A program made the position numbers and the translations under genes. A model generated the notes under the pieces. That model was given only the letters and a program-made list of their open reading frames with translations. It did not search any database and was not told where the DNA came from. A stretch of DNA of 64,000 nt from the human T2T-CHM13v2.0 reference genome, Homo sapiens, in assembly GCF_009914755.1 (NCBI RefSeq), contig NC_060926.1. One strand, written 5' to 3'. Positions 17,312 to 47,954 of this stretch are shown here, piece after piece; position 1 is the stretch's first letter; every line of letters starts with the position of its first letter.

Positions 17312-17423
17312 AGATTATGGAGAAGTCTGGCGAGGAAGGAATGCCTGATCTTGCCCATGTCATGCGCATCTTGTCTGCAGAAAATATCCCAAATTTGCCT
17401 CCTGGGGGAGGTCTTGCTGGCAA
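17312..17423 (+). CDS. PPM1B: PPM1B coding exon, 112 nt ([38 protein letters not shown])
   Basis: Acceptor ctacag and donor AA|gtaagt. Frame is continuous with its neighbours and encodes the PP2C C-terminal helical domain motif LPPGGGL. Confidence 0.97.
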
Positions 17424-17824: not shown

Positions 17825-17882
17825 GCGTAATGTTATTGAAGCTGTTTATAGTAGACTGAATCCACATAGAGAAAGTGATGGG
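17825..17882 (+). CDS. PPM1B: PPM1B coding exon, 58 nt (RNVIEAVYSRLNPHRESDG), last constitutive exon
   Basis: T12-ag acceptor and GGG|gtaagt donor. Ends codon 378 in phase 0. Confidence 0.97.
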
Positions 17883-29343: not shown

Positions 29344-29754
29344 TGAAGAAACTGTTCTGATGGCCTGCTTTTCTGTCCTTTTCCTACTGCTTTAAACATT
29401 GATTTTCTTTTGTACTAAATCATATAGCCAAATATTGTTTAAGTAAGTCAGTTTTAGGAAATGCTTGTGTTGCTGTTGAATTATAAAAGCTGAGTAAATT
29501 TCAGATTAAACTTTAAATGACTGTGAAATAAGACATAAACTAGTTAATGGTAATTTGCTTAAAATGACTTGAGATTATTATTGGAAGTTTTTATTAATTG
29601 ATACAGGTAAGAATTGATATTTAATAAAATGTTCTCATGCTTAGACTATATTACTTTTCGGTAGAGAAATTAGTATTTTGCTGTAATGTGTTATGAAATA
29701 CATGTGATATCCTAGTTTGTCTACTGACACTGGGGTCTTGAATCTTAAAAAAAG

Positions 29755-30060
29755 GCCTCCGATGAAGCAGAGGAAAGTGGATCACAGGGAAAATTGGTGG
29801 AAGCTCTCAGGCAAATGAGAATTAATCATAGGGGAAACTACCGACAACTTCTGGAGGAGATGCTGACTAGTTACAGGCTAGCTAAAGTAGAGGGAGAAGA
29901 AAGCCCTGCTGAACCAGCTGCCACAGCTACTTCTTCGAACAGTGATGCTGGAAACCCAGTGACAATGCAGGAAAGCCATACTGAATCAGAAAGTGGTCTT
30001 GCTGAATTAGACAGCTCTAATGAAGATGCAGGGACAAAGATGAGTGGTGAAAAAATATGA
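29755..30060 (+). CDS. PPM1B: Last coding exon of the long isoform (ASDEAEESGSQGKLVEALRQ...MSGEKI*, 479 aa)
   Basis: 101 codons plus TGA in phase 0 after aaaaaaag|. 378+101=479 aa. Overlaps track ORF 29794..30060. Confidence 0.95.
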   Translation, partial: ASDEAEESGSQGKLVEALRQMRINHRGNYRQLLEEMLTSYRLAKVEGEESPAEPAATATSSNSDAGNPVTMQESHTESESGLAELDSSNEDAGTKMSGEKI

Positions 30061-31657: not shown

Positions 31658-31687
31658 GGTGCTGGAGATCTAGAAGACCCATGGTAG
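31658..31687 (+). CDS. PPM1B: Last coding exon of the short isoform (GAGDLEDPW*, 387 aa)
   Basis: Strong acceptor ttcttccttttctcttcctgtag|GGT, then 9 codons and TAG, then about 1.7 kb of repeat-free AT-rich UTR. Confidence 0.95.
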   Translation, partial: GAGDLEDPW

Positions 31688-33381
31688 CCTTAAAAACCTT
31701 CTAAAATGCTTTTGATTCTGAAAATTGGGGGAAAAAACTTTTAATCACAATTTTCTTCAATACAAGGGGAAAATATTCTTGCGGATTCCCAACGTTTTGT
31801 GATATGAGCAGAAAATCATTAGCATTTCCCATCATTTGTTCATATTTGTGTTTTCTGACAGTTGCCACTTGTAGCATTGCCTGTACTACAGTATTTTTTG
31901 CCAACCTCAGGCATACTCGTTACATCTGTATTGAACTTTCGGCCCTAGAAACCAGTGGAGTTATTTCACCACAAATCAACAATGTGCCTGAGGTGCATGG
32001 GAAATATAGTTAGCTATACTCTGAAAATACATTATGTTTTTTTTCTTTAAACAAAACACACAACATGTAAGCATGTAAGAGTAAAGAATTGTATGATATG
32101 TTCCTTTTTTCAGTTCACCAAGTTGGAAGCCTTTTGCAGCTCTGTGGCTTGGAATTTCATTTGAGCAATTTCTATAGGATATGTATTTATTATTGATTGT
32201 TATTTAATTTTTTTCCAATTTTACCTGTATTACCAAACTGGGTTCTCCAATAATGTCCAAATTGTAATGTTGCCTTGCTTCAAGATAAAGTGTATTTGGG
32301 AATAATATTATAAACCCTTACAAATTTTATGCATGTATCTACTGCATCCTTCAACTCTCACTAGAAAATCTTTTGAAACCAAATGGATTAATTTATGGCT
32401 ATTTATAATTTGCTTTGACATCTCACTGTTGGAAATTTTTTAAAGATGAGATTTGCCTTTATAATGTAAATTGTGATTTTTGTTTTACATGTGGGTTTCT
32501 ATAGTTTTAATTTTTTCAGCTTTTAAGATACGAGTTTTGTGTAATTTGGTATTTTTAATCATTTATGTTATTTTAAAAGCTCAGAATATCACATTGAAAT
32601 TACTATAAATACATTTAAAATTATCTATTTTAGATCTAAGGAAATACTACAGAGATATTTTCATGGGTTCAGTAACTTTTCATTTTATAACATTGGGCAC
32701 GGTACAGAGTGATTGTCACATAAGGTACTTGAAGATTTATTAGTTTAATTCTATTTTTACAGTAACCTTGAATTCTTCTGAGTTTTGCATGTATTAAATT
32801 CAATTAATGCTGAACATGAAGAGTAAAGTATTTATCTGAAAGAAGTTTCTGGGTTAGGAGAAGTAATGAATGTATCCATTTGTACATGGTTTACATGTTG
32901 TGGATGCTTTGTAAACATTTTCCTGTATGTTTAAATTGTGTTTCAGCAGGATGTAATTGCCCTTGTGTGTAGTTAAAATGAGTCATCATCTGGTCCTTTG
33001 TGAAATGGAATTCATGGTATTTTCTGTAACGTTTTCCTGAAGCTGTTTCTGGAGAGCCACACATTTAAATACAGACAGCTTTCCTGATCATTTGATTTAT
33101 TGTGCACCTGATTTTTGGTCTAAAAGGAATTATTGCCACAATATATTTTATTTATTCTTTAGATTTTAGCCTTGTAAGTTAAAGTGCTTTACATGATGAT
33201 GTGAAAAGCTGTTTGTCCCTTTACTGGGTTTGGGGGGTTGTTAAAAGATAGGGAATGAAGAATGCAAAATGGTTTATCGTTCAAACTGTCCACTCTGATC
33301 CAACCCTGTACTGATAGTACTTCCCAGTATGATATTGTGATGTTTCATACAATGCAGTGAACATAACCAACTTGTTACCTA

Positions 33382-33387
33382 AATAAA
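33382..33387 (+). terminator. Poly(A) signal for the short-isoform 3'UTR
   Basis: AATAAA, then CA at about 33410 and T/GT-rich downstream sequence. Repeats resume shortly afterwards. Confidence 0.8.
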
Positions 33388-33580
33388 GAATTGATAAAAA
33401 CAGTGTGACATATTACTATTTGGTATGATTCAGTTTTTAATGTTATTTTAAACTTCTTATATGGTTGGCATATTTCTGAAAATTTAATTCCAAAGAGGAA
33501 TTAACCAAACTGTACAGGACAATATTAACCCCTTCTGTACTCTAGAAATATTTATACTCCTTTTAAAAAAACCTGCCTTT

Positions 33581-33913
<333 letters not shown>

Positions 33914-33999
33914 TTACTGGTGCTTGAAACAGAAATAATGTATGAGTTAGTAAAAGAAAAACCCATATTCAGTGTTGACTCATCTGAATTTCCTAGCCT

Positions 34000-42790: not shown

Positions 42791-42841
42791 TTTCATCAAC
42801 CTTCAGTTGCATACAAAGACAATTTTTTATATCCTAAGTAA
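42791..42841 (+). CDS. PPM1B: Candidate distal alternative exon FHQPSVAYKDNFLYPK*
   Basis: aattttctttaacag|TTT CAT CAA CCT TCA GTT GCA TAC. In phase 0 it resembles the recalled mouse tail FYQPSIAYSDNVFLL. Possible donor AA|gtaaat at 42837/42838. Confidence 0.55.
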   Translation, partial: FHQPSVAYKDNFLYPK

Positions 42842-43587
42842 ATATTTACATATATTTTAAGACATTGGCCTTTTGAATATTTGTACTTTAATACAACTGG
42901 AACTTATTTCTGAGGTAAAAATCTAATATAACATTTTCCTATAGATTTTTCCATTATCCCTTTATACCAGCTGTTACATAAGCCAATCTTTTCTCATTAT
43001 TTGAAGTTGTCCTTTATGACATATTCATGTATATGCTTGTATTTTTATAAGCATTCTATTTTATCGTTTTGTGTTGTGTGTCAGTACCATGTCATCTTAA
43101 TTATCATAGTTTTACTATACATTTTATTATCTGATAGGGAAAATGCCCCTTATTATTCTACATTTACAAAAATTGAATGTGTTTATTTTTCCAGATGAAT
43201 TTTTCAATAACTTGGCCAAGATATCCCTGCCAAATAAAAATCTCATTAATGTGTTGATTGAATTGTTGTATGTGTAGATTAATGTAGGGGTCATTGGTAT
43301 CTTTAGCCAAGGTGAGTTCCACCAGGAAGATGCTACATCTTTCTATTTATACAAGTGTTTTTAATGTCCCCAGTACAGTTTTGTAATTTTCTCCATATGA
43401 TCTACACCGTTCTTAAATTAATTCCTTGTTATTTTATATTTCTTATTGCTGTGATGAGTGAACCCCCCTCCTCAGTATATTTTAAATGTATACCTTCTTA
43501 GACAACTAGTTTTATTTACTTACCAACCCCAATCCTGCAAGAAAAAAAAAAACCATATATATATATATATTTCAATTTCTATCATAT

Positions 43588-43601
43588 CCACCAGATGGCA
43601 G
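43588..43601 (+). promoter_or_regulatory. CTCF core motif
   Basis: CCACCAGATGGCAG matches CCASYAGRKGGCRS at all 14 positions. Confidence 0.6.
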
Positions 43602-43777
43602 TCTTGGGCACGTCCATCTGTAAACCTGCTGAGAGCTCTGGTGACAAGAAAGGCAGTGGCTGGCAGACCTTCCAAGCACTCAGAAGCACGCGGACAAAAA
43701 GGTTTTTTTGTAAACCCGAACGAAAAATAAACCCAGCATTATATAATTATAGTATTTGTACTGCTGTTAACCTTTAA
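43595..43777 (+). CDS. PPM1B: Candidate distal alternative last exon MAVLGTSICKPA... (60 aa in phase 0)
   Basis: ccaccag|ATG GCA GTC TTG GGC ACG TCC ATC TGT AAA CCT resembles the recalled mouse tail MADLSTSICKPS. AATAAA at 43726-43731. Confidence 0.55.
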   Translation: MAVLGTSICKPAESSGDKKGSGWQTFQALRSTRTKRFFCKPERKINPALYNYSICTAVNL

Positions 43778-44186
43778 TCTTATAACCCATTAGTGGAGAC
43801 AGAGAAGGACTGTCACTGTGCCCTTCAAAATCATATTTTTTCCTGTCCATGTGATAAACACCTGTGGCTTCTTGGCAGCACTTTTGGTTTGATTCCAGGG
43901 ACTCTTATGGTTAAAGGCAGGCTTTAATCTGGCGTTGTTTTCCTTCTCCTAAAAGCACCATTTAAATCGGAAGTTACTGGATTTCTAAACGGTTAAGACC
44001 GTCTTCCGACTGGTTTTTATCATTCCCAGATCTCTTCTGAAAGGAGGTGGTGTGCATAGTTAATATGAAAGGAACTGGCTTGTTCTACGCGAATACAAAT
44101 CTGAATAACTCTTATATATTAGACCTTTTTTTTTTTTTACTTTAGTGACTTCCAGTATCTATATTTAGAAGTGTATAATTACTTGA

Positions 44187-44187
44187 G

Positions 44188-44220
<33 letters not shown>

Positions 44221-44270
44221 TATATAGTGTGTGTGTGTGTATCTATGTGTATATATATACATATACACAT
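44187..44270. repeat. Compound (TA)n/(CA)n/(TG)n microsatellite
   Basis: Directly visible in the sequence. Confidence 0.9.
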
Positions 44271-44809
44271 GTGTTTTTAGGGCTTTTGGCTTTTTTAGGG
44301 CGGGACACGTGAATCTGGCAGTTGAGACAGAATTTTTCCTATAGCGGTGTAACAGTGTACAATACTAAACTAATGAAATGTCTTTCACTATCAACAATTT
44401 ACGTATCCATGCTGATTGCTTTAACACTAGAAAAAATATGCCAAAATAAACTACATTTTCTAGGCGCTTTCACACCAAAAACACACACACACAGCTGCTT
44501 GCCCATTTGAGAACAGCCAATAAAGCAAACTCTTTGAATGATTTGTGGTTTTGTGTCCCCAGAAGTTTTAACAGTAGTTCTGAAGATTTGTCATTTGTGT
44601 GTGCTTCAAAGATAGAGTAATACATTTTATAGCTGGGCAGATCTCTAACTATATAGTTATAAAATCTCAAAGCTGAGAAAACCCTGAATGCCAGATGATC
44701 TTTCAGCAGCCTCTAGTGTGAGTGTCAGGAATGAGTTCATTTCCATCTTTGATCAGCTCTGCCTGTCGTGTTGCATCTCTGCTTCTTCTCCTCAGTTGTC
44801 TTATTAACC

Positions 44810-45355
44810 CTCGGGGCTATGAAAATAAGTATTTAAAAGCTCCTGGAACCCACAAAAAACACTAAGCCTTGAGAGAGATGTAGTTGATCTGAGTCACATA
44901 TGCTAACAACTTTTTATTTCCCTGATTATTCTTCCTGTTCTGTACAATGACTAGAGAGAATAAAACTACATCAGGTACAAAAACCACCTGCCTTCTTAAT
45001 TAATGACCTTTGTTATAGATTAACTTCTCCTTTGTTGTCCTGCTTCACTTAGATCAGATGACAGAAAACCCATGACTACACCCTCTGTAAAAGGTGTTCA
45101 GTGTACCTTTCCCAAGAGAAACACTGCCTGTAACCAAATTGCTGTAACTATGTGCCAACCTTGTATGAAAAATGTTGCAATCCTGCCAAAAACTCCTGTC
45201 TCTGCCTATGGAAATGAAACCTTGAGCTTCCTTCCTTCAGCACGCTGACTCCATTCCTTTGGAGCTGGTGCTCCTGGGTGGGCTGTCCTCAAACTCTGCG
45301 CTTGAATTATCTGTTTAAATTAGATTCTGACCTTTTTGATTATTTTAGGTTGATA
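44810..45355 (+). mobile_element. Probable ERV1-class solo LTR
   Basis: LTR-like composition ending gattattttaggttgata. Subfamily not assigned. Confidence 0.45.
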
Positions 45356-47254
45356 GGGCCAAAATTTAACCCCACCTATTAGGATAACTTCCAGCATATT
45401 CTCTTTTCTGTCCCCCATTATTTCATTGATTACCATTATATATCCTAACGCCAACTGTATTCACCATCCAGGACCCTTTTCTCCCAATGTGCTCTCATTT
45501 TCTTGATCATTCTTAAAGTATGCAACCCAGAACTGAACATTTATGGGTAGCAGAACTGTCTCCTCCTTTATTCTCATTAATACTTTTCTGTTCTTCTATT
45601 TAACACCGAAATATTGAACTAGATTTTCTGGCAACTGCATGATACTGTTTGAGTCCTTCGAGCTTATTTTTGGTTGGTGTTTTGGTTAACCTATTTTGCA
45701 GGACCTTTATTTGTTCCTATTAAGTTTTCTTGGGTAAAATTTATTAACCTTTTGAGTTGGTTGTGGATTTATCTAAGATATGTTAGCTATCTTCTTCTTT
45801 CCAGTAACTCCAAAATTTCATACATAAACCTCCCATACTGAATGAAACAGGTCCAAGTACTGAGGCCCTGTGGGAGGCCTCAGAAACTTCTCTTCAGTAG
45901 GATGCAAATTGACCAATCTTTTACTCAACACCCATTAGGTAAGAATTTCAGCAATGTACTGATCCACTTATCTGCTCATATTTCTCCAGTTTATCTACAA
46001 GGATATCATAGGATTTTACATTCTTTGCAGAAGTCACTTGCATATAACCCAGCTTAAGCGGAGGCTTCACTTTGACCTATTCCTCTAGGTCCTTGCAAAT
46101 TTTTGGTGTTGGTTTTTGCTTGTGGTATTGCTTGCATCATTTATGCATTTTAAAAATCCTGAGCTTGTTACAATTCTTCCTGTGTAACTGCTGATTTCTT
46201 GGTTTTGTTTTTATTGTTGTTTTATTATTTTTAGGTACCTCTGCCTTTTTATTCTGTATGTATGTTATACTTCAATTAAAATATTTTTAAAAATATCCCT
46301 GATGCATTGAAAAAAATCAAAACTACAAGTTGCTCTGCAACCTGAAGGCCAACTGTAGCAGTGTAGGTTGGTTAAGGTAGAACAGTGCCTCATCCACAGA
46401 CACCAGTCGCATCACAGACACGTGGACTTAGATGTTGCAACCACTCTCCAGCAAGTGGCAGGAAAGTGTTCTAATTCTAATGAAACTAGTATAGTTATAT
46501 TGCAACAAATACCTGACAGGTGGAAGTAACATGACTTGCAAAAAAAGTGCTTTTTTTGGAAGTGGTTTTTCCAATTTACCAAATCTGCCACATGGGCCAG
46601 CAGCAGCCCTGGAGCCTTGAATTCCTCTGGGAGAGGAGACGAGGTAGCTCTGCACCCTACATTCTCCCCTACCTGATATATATCCTCTTTCTTAAATAAA
46701 AAAAATAAAAAAAAAAAAAGAACAATGGAAAAAGGCGACACTGTAGGACTGTGGCACAGGAATTAAGCAGCATCTGAGCAATCTTAAAGGACCAGTTTTG
46801 GTTTCCTAGGCTGGAGTTCAGCCTTTTTGGAAGGGCCTGTGACACACTCAGTATGTCCTTCTACAACTCTTATTCTCTTGACTTCCTCAGTCACCAGGCT
46901 GAAAAAATAGCAAATGAGAAAAAGTAGAAAGGAAGGGAATGCCCCAGATGTAGATAGCATTGTAAATTTCTGCAGATATATGTGTTATTTATAATGTGTA
47001 TATAGATAGTGTATATTTTTGTGCACATTTCGGTATATATGCTATACTTCAATAAAATTTTAAAGAACCTTGAATAATGCAATAAACCTTCATATATATT
47101 TATTTATATGAGGTTTCTGTTGGTGGAAAACATGGAAACAGTTGAATAGATGTGGATATGCTTCGGAGAATATGGATTAAAATATAAATTACATGTATGA
47201 AAAAGTCACTTTCAGGGAAGGAGGGCACACCTTCCAAGAGACAGGCAACAGTTT

Positions 47255-47700
47255 AGTCAGGGTAAGCTAACTTGCTATAACAGAACCAAATCTGTAATGT
47301 TCAAACATAACAGAAGTTTATTTCTTGTTCATCTATAGACCAGGCTAGGTGTTCCAGGTCAGAGGCTTCTTCTCTTCCATGTGGTGACTCAGGTTTGAGG
47401 CGTTTTGCATCTGGTGGCTACTATCACCCAGGGCCTTATTGTTATATATATCCCACCAGCAGAAGGGGAAAGAGAGCAAGGGAAGGGTACCCCTGCTTCT
47501 TCAAAGCCTCAACCTGAAGGTGGTGCACTTTGTTGCTATTCGCACTTCGTTGATGAGAACATGGCCACACTTAGCTGTAGGTGCAAGGTGTGGGGCTGAG
47601 AAACTATTCCTGGTTAGTAGCTGCATCGCAGCTACAACTCAGTTACTATGGAAGACAGGAAGCACAGTGTGAGAGCAACTCCTGTGTCTGCCACAGGCAG
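47255..47700. mobile_element. Old MaLR LTR (MLT1-like)
   Basis: agtcagggtaagcta...acagaagtttatttcttgttcat...acatggccacacttagctg. Confidence 0.55.
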
Positions 47701-47954
47701 CCATTCTCCAGAGCAGGTAAACAGGGTCCACCACTTCGGAGAGATGAGGCATACATATTAAGGCACTGTGGACAGAGAAAACGAATGATTCAAACACAAA
47801 CTTCAAAAATGAGATACTCCACGCACCCACCAGAATTACTAAGATTAAAAAGACTGATAATACCATATGTTGGCGAAGGTTTGTAACAACCAGAACTGTT
47901 GGCATTACTGGTGGAAGCATAATGACATAATCATGTTGGGAAAAGTTTTGGAGT

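What the first reader, a model, noticed from the sequence alone, without database searches (positions are those of the whole stretch)
43595..43777. Apparent 1-nt frameshift in the most distal tail exon: non-stop risk, with rescue by the upstream 47-nt exon
Seen: AAA CCT GC TGA G. One extra base (CCT AGC TGA) would give KPS*, the recalled rodent ending. As written, phase 0 runs 60 aa to TAA at 43775, past the AATAAA at 43726, so cleavage 15-30 nt after that signal would give a stop-less mRNA. If exon 42791-42837 (47 nt) is included first, the frame becomes ...FLYPKWQSWARPSVNLLRALVTRKAVAGRPSKHSEARGQKGFFVNPNEK* and stops at the TAA inside that AATAAA, giving a new basic 60-aa tail (438 aa). Inference: lineage-specific loss of one isoform and possible birth of another.
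Basis: partly seen in the sequence, partly recalled or inferred. Interest (0 to 1): 0.72.

Follow-up and report, generated by a model that had tools for sequence, protein, structure and literature searches.

The report
Drifting alternative tail exons of PPM1B
This is an already annotated spare last exon of a human phosphatase gene whose long reading frame is shared with other species and drifts freely among them, so it is likely a poorly constrained minor tail rather than a human-specific broken isoform with a built-in rescue.

Summary
All 9 of 9 homologous ORFs covering the exon start, roughly 7-22% diverged, read the human frame (K-P-A-E). They differ in tail length (49-110 aa), and 7 of 9 carry frame-shifting indels further on. 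The recalled rodent ending needs no indel: two substitutions suffice. No rodent protein with that ending was retrieved. The upstream exon at 42791 is real: a kangaroo-rat RefSeq isoform ends with it (10 of the first 11 residues identical). The one-base offset that has tool support lies in that exon and puts its TAA (42835-37) out of frame. Non-stop risk is conditional. RefSeq runs the exon to 47771, past the stop. The AATAAA cannot be encoded in 6 of 7 homologs tested. Cleavage at two Tyr codons would let poly(A) create a stop (7 of 30 positions). The 'rescue' stop inside AATAAA is a 1-in-3 frame coincidence behind a weak donor. Verdict: an ordinary, drifting alternative last exon with a small testable side question.

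The parts
17825..17882 (+). Last common coding exon of PPM1B; phase-0 donor from which all tail exons are chosen
   Evidence: Hub RefSeq table; core CDS 1134 nt = 378 aa
42791..42837 (+). Unannotated 47-nt exon candidate, homologous to the tail of a rodent PPM1B isoform; weak donor at 42838
   Evidence: P0020 (Dipodomys merriami isoform X3) 10 of first 11 residues identical, minimum 1 nt change, next best site in the window 8; donor score -0.53 vs 3.2-6.6 for five annotated donors (rough matrix)
42835..42837 (+). TAA that aligns with the rodent stop after a one-base offset near codon 12; out of frame in human
   Evidence: 2 substitutions plus 1 indel in codons 13-16 vs 6 substitutions in codons 12-16 without an indel
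42839..42841 (+). In-frame TAA reached if the weak donor is not used: 16-aa tail, 394-aa protein
42886..43460 (-). Ancient antisense LINE-1 ORF2 fragment between the two exons; holds an AATAAA (43233, + strand) with a GU-rich downstream stretch
   Evidence: 350 of 556 aligned bases identical to L1 locus L019, z 16.7 against 60 dinucleotide shuffles; hexamer context
43595..43777 (+). Phase-0 ORF of the distal last exon: 60-aa tail, TAA 43775-77; no Pfam or PDB match
43628..43633 (+). Ala-Glu codons at the alleged frameshift; each is one substitution from Ser and from a stop
   Evidence: same frame in 9 of 9 homologs
43709..43731 (+). Candidate proximal poly(A) signal: UGUA 43709-12, AATAAA 43726-31, U/GU-rich stretch downstream
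   Evidence: hexamer not encodable in 6 of 7 homologs tested
43742..43750 (+). Two in-frame Tyr (TAT) codons, 43742-44 and 43748-50, where cleavage plus poly(A) would create UAA (427 or 429 aa)
43595..47771 (+). RefSeq terminal exon of one PPM1B transcript (4.2 kb); transcript class and coding status not given in the table
   Evidence: Hub table; seven further AATAAA between 44445 and 47081, none just before 47771

Best explanation
The stretch 43595-43777 is the start of an annotated alternative last exon of PPM1B whose long frame is shared with other species and has drifted among them, so it is likely a minor tail under little protein-level constraint and not a recent human frameshift. Shown: the phase-0 acceptor, the 60-codon frame, the same K-P-A-E frame in every homolog found, and tail lengths from 49 to 110 aa. 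Inferred: when the common exon is spliced to 43595 and the transcript runs on, as in the RefSeq model, translation stops normally at 43775 and gives a 438-aa protein with an intact catalytic core and a dispensable basic tail. If the proximal AATAAA is used instead, heterogeneous cleavage would give a mixture: mostly non-stop mRNAs that would be degraded, and some whose stop is completed by poly(A) at a Tyr codon. The upstream 42791 exon is the conserved element. It differs from the rodent copy by a one-base offset that removes its own stop; it would give a 394-aa rodent-like tail if its weak donor is skipped, and the 438-aa 'rescue' form only if that donor is used.
For: Frame shared by 9 of 9 ORFs that cover the exon start, estimated divergence 7-22%. 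Seven different tail lengths; frame-shifting indels in 7 of 9; P0003 has no indel but lacks the 43775 stop and differs at 23 of 110 residues, whereas the first coding exon is 100% identical to colobus and 99% to whale and the main isoform's last 60 residues match colobus at 59 of 60. In P0012 the residue before the Met is Thr, so no AG acceptor can sit there. AATAAA not encodable in 6 of 7 homologs tested. RefSeq exon end 47771 (hub table). Rodent isoform P0020 confirms the 42791 exon and locates the offset.
Against: The homologs are unnamed ORFs, so species and polarity are unknown and divergence was estimated from protein only. Species with an early stop are invisible to these searches, which biases toward the long frame. 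The proximal AATAAA has a good context (UGUA upstream, 50% T downstream), and no AATAAA lies just before 47771, so the annotated end may be a coverage end. The first 13 codons differ at only 1-3 positions in each of 7 homologs, hinting at residual constraint, though no single comparison was significant (Fisher p 0.25-1.0). No human RNA data could be examined.
Confidence: 0.6

Rival explanations
1. One reading: a one-base deletion at about 43628 destroyed a short ancestral isoform, direct splicing now gives non-stop mRNA, and inclusion of the 47-nt exon rescues it as a new 438-aa basic-tailed isoform.
For: The frames work on paper; 23 of 30 cleavage positions are non-stop; the 47-nt exon is homologous to a rodent coding exon; an old deletion at the base of primates is not excluded.
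Against: 9 of 9 homologs share the frame; two substitutions give the same rodent-type ending; the rodent ending was retrieved by no call (none among the 98 proteins, tails read); donor 42837 is the weakest scored and 233 of 1634 GT sites in the region score as well; the exon is in no listed RefSeq transcript; the rescue stop is a 1-in-3 coincidence.
Confidence: 0.12
2. The proximal signal is used and cleavage falls mainly at the UA of the Tyr codon 43748-50 (or 43742-44), so poly(A) completes a UAA and the mRNA encodes a 429-aa (or 427-aa) protein with no 3' UTR instead of being a non-stop substrate.
For: Both codons are in frame, 12 and 18 nt after the hexamer. A review puts the hexamer 21 nt upstream of the cut and names CA and UA as the commonest cut dinucleotides (PMC5546720, passages). 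Tyr-to-stop conversion by polyadenylation is described (PMC3647115, passage).
Against: Only 2 of the 8 CA/UA positions in the 30 tested create a stop; cleavage is heterogeneous; the hexamer is not conserved; no 3'-end data.
Confidence: 0.13
3. The living human product of this region is the 42791 exon used without the 42837 donor (as a terminal exon ending near the AATAAA at 43233, or with the donor at 42914), giving a 394-aa protein whose tail is nearly the rodent one.
For: Only 1 minimal change in 11 codons between human and kangaroo rat points to long constraint; in-frame TAA at 42839; AATAAA 43233 has 12 GT/TG steps downstream, second highest of the 33 hexamers listed; donor 42914 scores 2.58 vs -0.53.
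Against: Not in the RefSeq table. The 43233 signal lies in an old L1 fragment. Use of donor 42914 would leave the stop 73 nt before a junction, which predicts nonsense-mediated decay by the usual 50-nt rule (recalled).
Confidence: 0.15

Closest known systems
Rodent PPM1B (PP2C-beta) short-tail splice isoforms; Dipodomys merriami isoform X3 (P0020)
   Same: Same phase-0 junction after the common exon; the 42791 exon encodes 10 of the same first 11 residues.
   Different: Human has a one-base offset and lacks the stop at codon 16. The rodent isoform for the distal exon (PP2C-beta-4 type, testis-enriched) is recalled only; no call retrieved it.
Non-stop decay substrates (PELO/HBS1L/SKI pathway; recalled)
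   Same: A poly(A) signal inside an open frame; 23 of 30 simulated cut sites leave no stop.
   Different: Use of the signal is unshown, the annotated exon runs past the stop, and some cut sites create a stop.
Polyadenylation-mediated Tyr-to-stop conversion (Yao et al. 2012, EPRS; label PAY* recalled)
   Same: In-frame Tyr codons at cleavage distance from an AAUAAA in coding sequence.
   Different: Here it is a minor alternative last exon with an unconserved hexamer, not an internal exon of the main isoform; no cDNA or protein evidence. I saw a review passage and a reference entry, not the paper.

Membership tests
PPM1B alternative tail exon | Phase-0 AG acceptor that continues the common frame | tested here: met
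   42791 and 43595 both; 43595 is in the RefSeq table
PPM1B alternative tail exon | Orthologous tail in an annotated isoform of another species (42791 exon) | tested here: met
   P0020, 1 of 98 proteins
PPM1B alternative tail exon | Orthologous tail in an annotated isoform of another species (43595 exon) | tested here: inconclusive
   0 of 98 and no full-length PPM1B; only cluster representatives are visible
PPM1B alternative tail exon | Protein-level constraint on the 60-aa tail | tested here: not met
   Tails 49-110 aa, frameshifts in 7 of 9, 23 of 110 residues differ in P0003
Human- or ape-specific frameshift | Relatives keep the other frame at 43628 | tested here: not met
   0 of 9 homologs; search is blind to 12-aa ORFs
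Non-stop decay substrate | No in-frame stop before the poly(A) tail | tested here: inconclusive
   True for 23 of 30 simulated cut sites, false for 7, and false for the RefSeq 3' end (hub table)
Non-stop decay substrate | Poly(A) site is used in vivo and the RNA is stabilised by PELO/HBS1L/SKI loss | not testable with these tools
   No RNA data
Tyr-to-stop by polyadenylation | In-frame Tyr codon at cleavage distance from a coding-region AAUAAA | tested here: met
   43742-44 and 43748-50
Tyr-to-stop by polyadenylation | cDNAs polyadenylated right after the UA, and the truncated protein detected | not testable with these tools
   No RNA or peptide data

The most novel reading that the evidence does not exclude
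Human PPM1B makes a distal-exon mRNA with no templated stop and no 3' UTR whose fate is set by a one-to-four-base choice of cleavage site: a cut at the Tyr codon 43748-50 yields a stable 429-aa isoform through a poly(A)-made UAA, neighbouring cuts go to non-stop decay, and inclusion of the 47-nt exon yields a 438-aa basic-tailed form; the AATAAA that sets this up is absent in most relatives found.
Probability: 0.12. Interest if true: 0.55.

Novelty: new member of a known kind. Interest (0 to 1): 0.2.

Why it matters
As it most likely stands it matters little: a minor last exon whose frame, stop, acceptor and poly(A) signal turn over between species, with the catalytic core untouched. It does correct one practical point: rodent short-tail PPM1B isoforms cannot be assumed to have exact human equivalents. 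If the novel case held, it would be a natural locus where cleavage micro-heterogeneity alone sorts mRNAs between non-stop decay and a poly(A)-completed stop, testable from existing 3'-end data.

Tried and rejected
PDB sequence search and Pfam scan of the tails: no match. ESM Atlas with the P0020 tail region: best score 0.80, chance level. Own-genome DNA searches with the distal exon, the 47-nt exon region and exon 17312-17423 found only the locus itself, so no retrocopy records a spliced form. The 50-aa N-terminal part of P0006 matches nothing in the window or 38 kb upstream; left unexplained. L1 origin of the exons themselves: not supported (z 0.4, -0.6 and -0.2; only the intervening stretch aligns); a first, cruder scoring did not reach significance even for that stretch. 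RNA structure at the poly(A) signal: z -0.46. Extra conservation of the first 13 codons: not significant. The acceptor matrix did not separate true from false sites (true acceptors scored -6.3 to 10.2), so acceptor scores were not used. Ten paper searches listed no title or abstract start on these PPM1B exons; the original rodent isoform papers and Yao 2012 were not held, so absence from print is not established.

Full report
Observation. The window is human PPM1B (hub table). The four common coding exons sum to 1134 nt, 378 aa, phase 0. Spliced directly to 43595 the frame runs 60 codons to TAA 43775-77, past AATAAA 43726-31. With 42791-42837 inserted it runs 60 codons to the TAA inside that hexamer. 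Both give 438 aa. Neither tail matches Pfam (0 families for 3 proteins), and the direct tail matches no PDB chain.

Is there a frameshift at 43628? I searched with the 60-aa tail (1 of 6 and 4 of 5 candidates passed) and with the best hit against 1.84 billion representatives (8 hits). Together these gave 10 distinct unnamed ORFs. One (P0010) covers only downstream sequence and was left out of the counts. All 9 that cover the exon start read K-P-A-E, the human frame. A frameshift-aware back-translation puts them about 7-22% from human (rough, protein-based). By recalled calibration that spans monkeys to more distant mammals; I could not name the species. So the frame is not recent. If that ending is right, it does not need an indel: the Ala and Glu codons at 43628-33 are each one substitution from Ser and from a stop. 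Against my reading: species with an early stop would give a 12-aa ORF that these searches cannot see, so polarity is open and an old primate-wide loss remains possible.

Is the tail constrained? No. The nine tails are 49 (three), 61, 64, 65, 92, 105 and 110 aa. Seven of nine carry frame-shifting indels, mostly in the T- and A-runs near 43703-43725; P0009 has an in-frame one; P0003 has none but reads through the 43775 stop and differs at 23 of 110 residues. For contrast, the first coding exon is 100% identical to colobus and 99% to whale, and the main isoform's last 60 residues match colobus at 59 of 60. In P0012 the residue before the exon's Met is Thr, so an AG acceptor cannot sit there. The first 13 codons differ at only 1-3 positions in the 7 homologs compared, but no comparison with the following codons was significant.

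The 47-nt exon. This is the better-supported element. P0020, annotated as Dipodomys merriami PPM1B isoform X3, ends right after the common exon in a 15-aa tail; 10 of its first 11 residues match window 42791 onward, at a minimum of 1 nt change, where the next best site on either strand of the window needs 8. From codon 12 the match fails in the human frame (6 changes in 5 codons) but is restored by a one-base offset (2 changes in codons 13-16), which puts the rodent stop exactly on TAA 42835-37, the last three bases before the GT. So the one-base difference with tool support lies here, not at 43628, and the 'rescue' frame is simply what follows from losing this stop. Which lineage changed is unknown. 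The donor at 42837 scores -0.53 on a rough matrix, below five annotated donors (3.2-6.6); 233 of 1634 GT sites in 17920-47771 score as well, and a better donor lies at 42914. If the donor is skipped, the next in-frame TAA (42839-41) gives a 394-aa protein with a 16-aa tail close to the rodent one. The exon is in none of the RefSeq exon lists in the hub table.

Non-stop risk. The hexamer has a fair context: UGUA at 43709-12 and 50% T downstream. But AATAAA occurs 1.1 times per kb on this strand and is not enriched locally (12 vs 8.0 +/- 2.7). It cannot be encoded by the aligned residues in 6 of the 7 homologs tested; P0004 allows it, and P0005 and P0006, not run, have the same residues there. 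RefSeq extends the exon to 47771, beyond the stop, although no AATAAA lies just before that end and the table does not give the transcript's class. If the proximal signal is used, simulated polyadenylation leaves no stop at 23 of 30 positions 5-34 nt after the hexamer and creates one at 7. Among the 8 positions ending in CA or UA, 2 create a stop, both at in-frame Tyr codons (43742-44, 43748-50; 427 and 429 aa). A review places the hexamer 21 nt upstream of the cut and names CA and UA as the commonest cut sites, with heterogeneity (PMC5546720, passages); that points to 43745 (non-stop) and 43749 (stop) as the nearest candidates. Tyr-to-stop conversion by polyadenylation is known (PMC3647115, one passage; Yao et al. 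2012 seen only as a reference entry in PMC12386981); poly(A)-made stops in nuclear genes of Blastocystis were seen as a search listing only (PMC4159000).

Mechanism. Shown: acceptors, frames, homolog frames, the rodent isoform. Inferred: minor use of the distal exon, normal termination at 43775 in long transcripts, a mixture of decay and poly(A)-completed stops in short ones, and no selected role for the tail. Untested: any human RNA or protein.

Literature. Passages on PPM1B in PMC9608770 and PMC9107372 do not mention these exons. Ten searches listed no title or abstract start about them; 'PPM1B, nonstop, polyadenylation' gave 0 papers. The original rodent isoform papers could not be read, and no supplements were examined, so the isoform catalogue of the 2p21 deletion work may already describe these forms.

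Verdict. Observation confirmed; interpretation partly supported. An annotated, drifting alternative last exon; interest 0.2. The cheap decisive test is 3'-end and junction data at this locus.

Noticed in passing
window 42886-43460: Ancient antisense LINE-1 ORF2 fragment (63% identity to a young L1, z 16.7) between the two tail exons; not among the longest masked stretches in the hub table.
   Followed up: yes
window 43610-43625: The antisense strand resembles the L1 reverse-transcriptase motif region at about the position expected by extending the L1 fragment; not significant on its own.
   Followed up: partly
P0006 residues 1-50: Homolog with Trp before the exon's Met and an N-terminal part unrelated to the human locus: spliced from an unknown exon, or a chimeric contig.
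   Followed up: partly
P0004-P0006, homologous to window 43744-43746: In this lineage two one-base losses put a templated stop 13-15 nt after the hexamer position (49-aa tail), so it would escape non-stop status by a different route.
   Followed up: no
window 33360-33383: The last 8 residues of a Colobus PPM1B entry (P0013) match here exactly, inside the 3' UTR of the 31658-33988 exon, just at an AATAAA (33382): a predicted splice into another isoform's UTR.
   Followed up: no
window 29730-29755: The acceptor of the main isoform's last exon is preceded by an A-run and almost no pyrimidine tract (lowest score, -6.3, of ten acceptors), yet the exon is conserved to fish.
   Followed up: no
window 46695-46720: A-rich tract with two AATAAA inside the RefSeq terminal exon; a likely internal-priming site that could confuse 3'-end data.
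   Followed up: no
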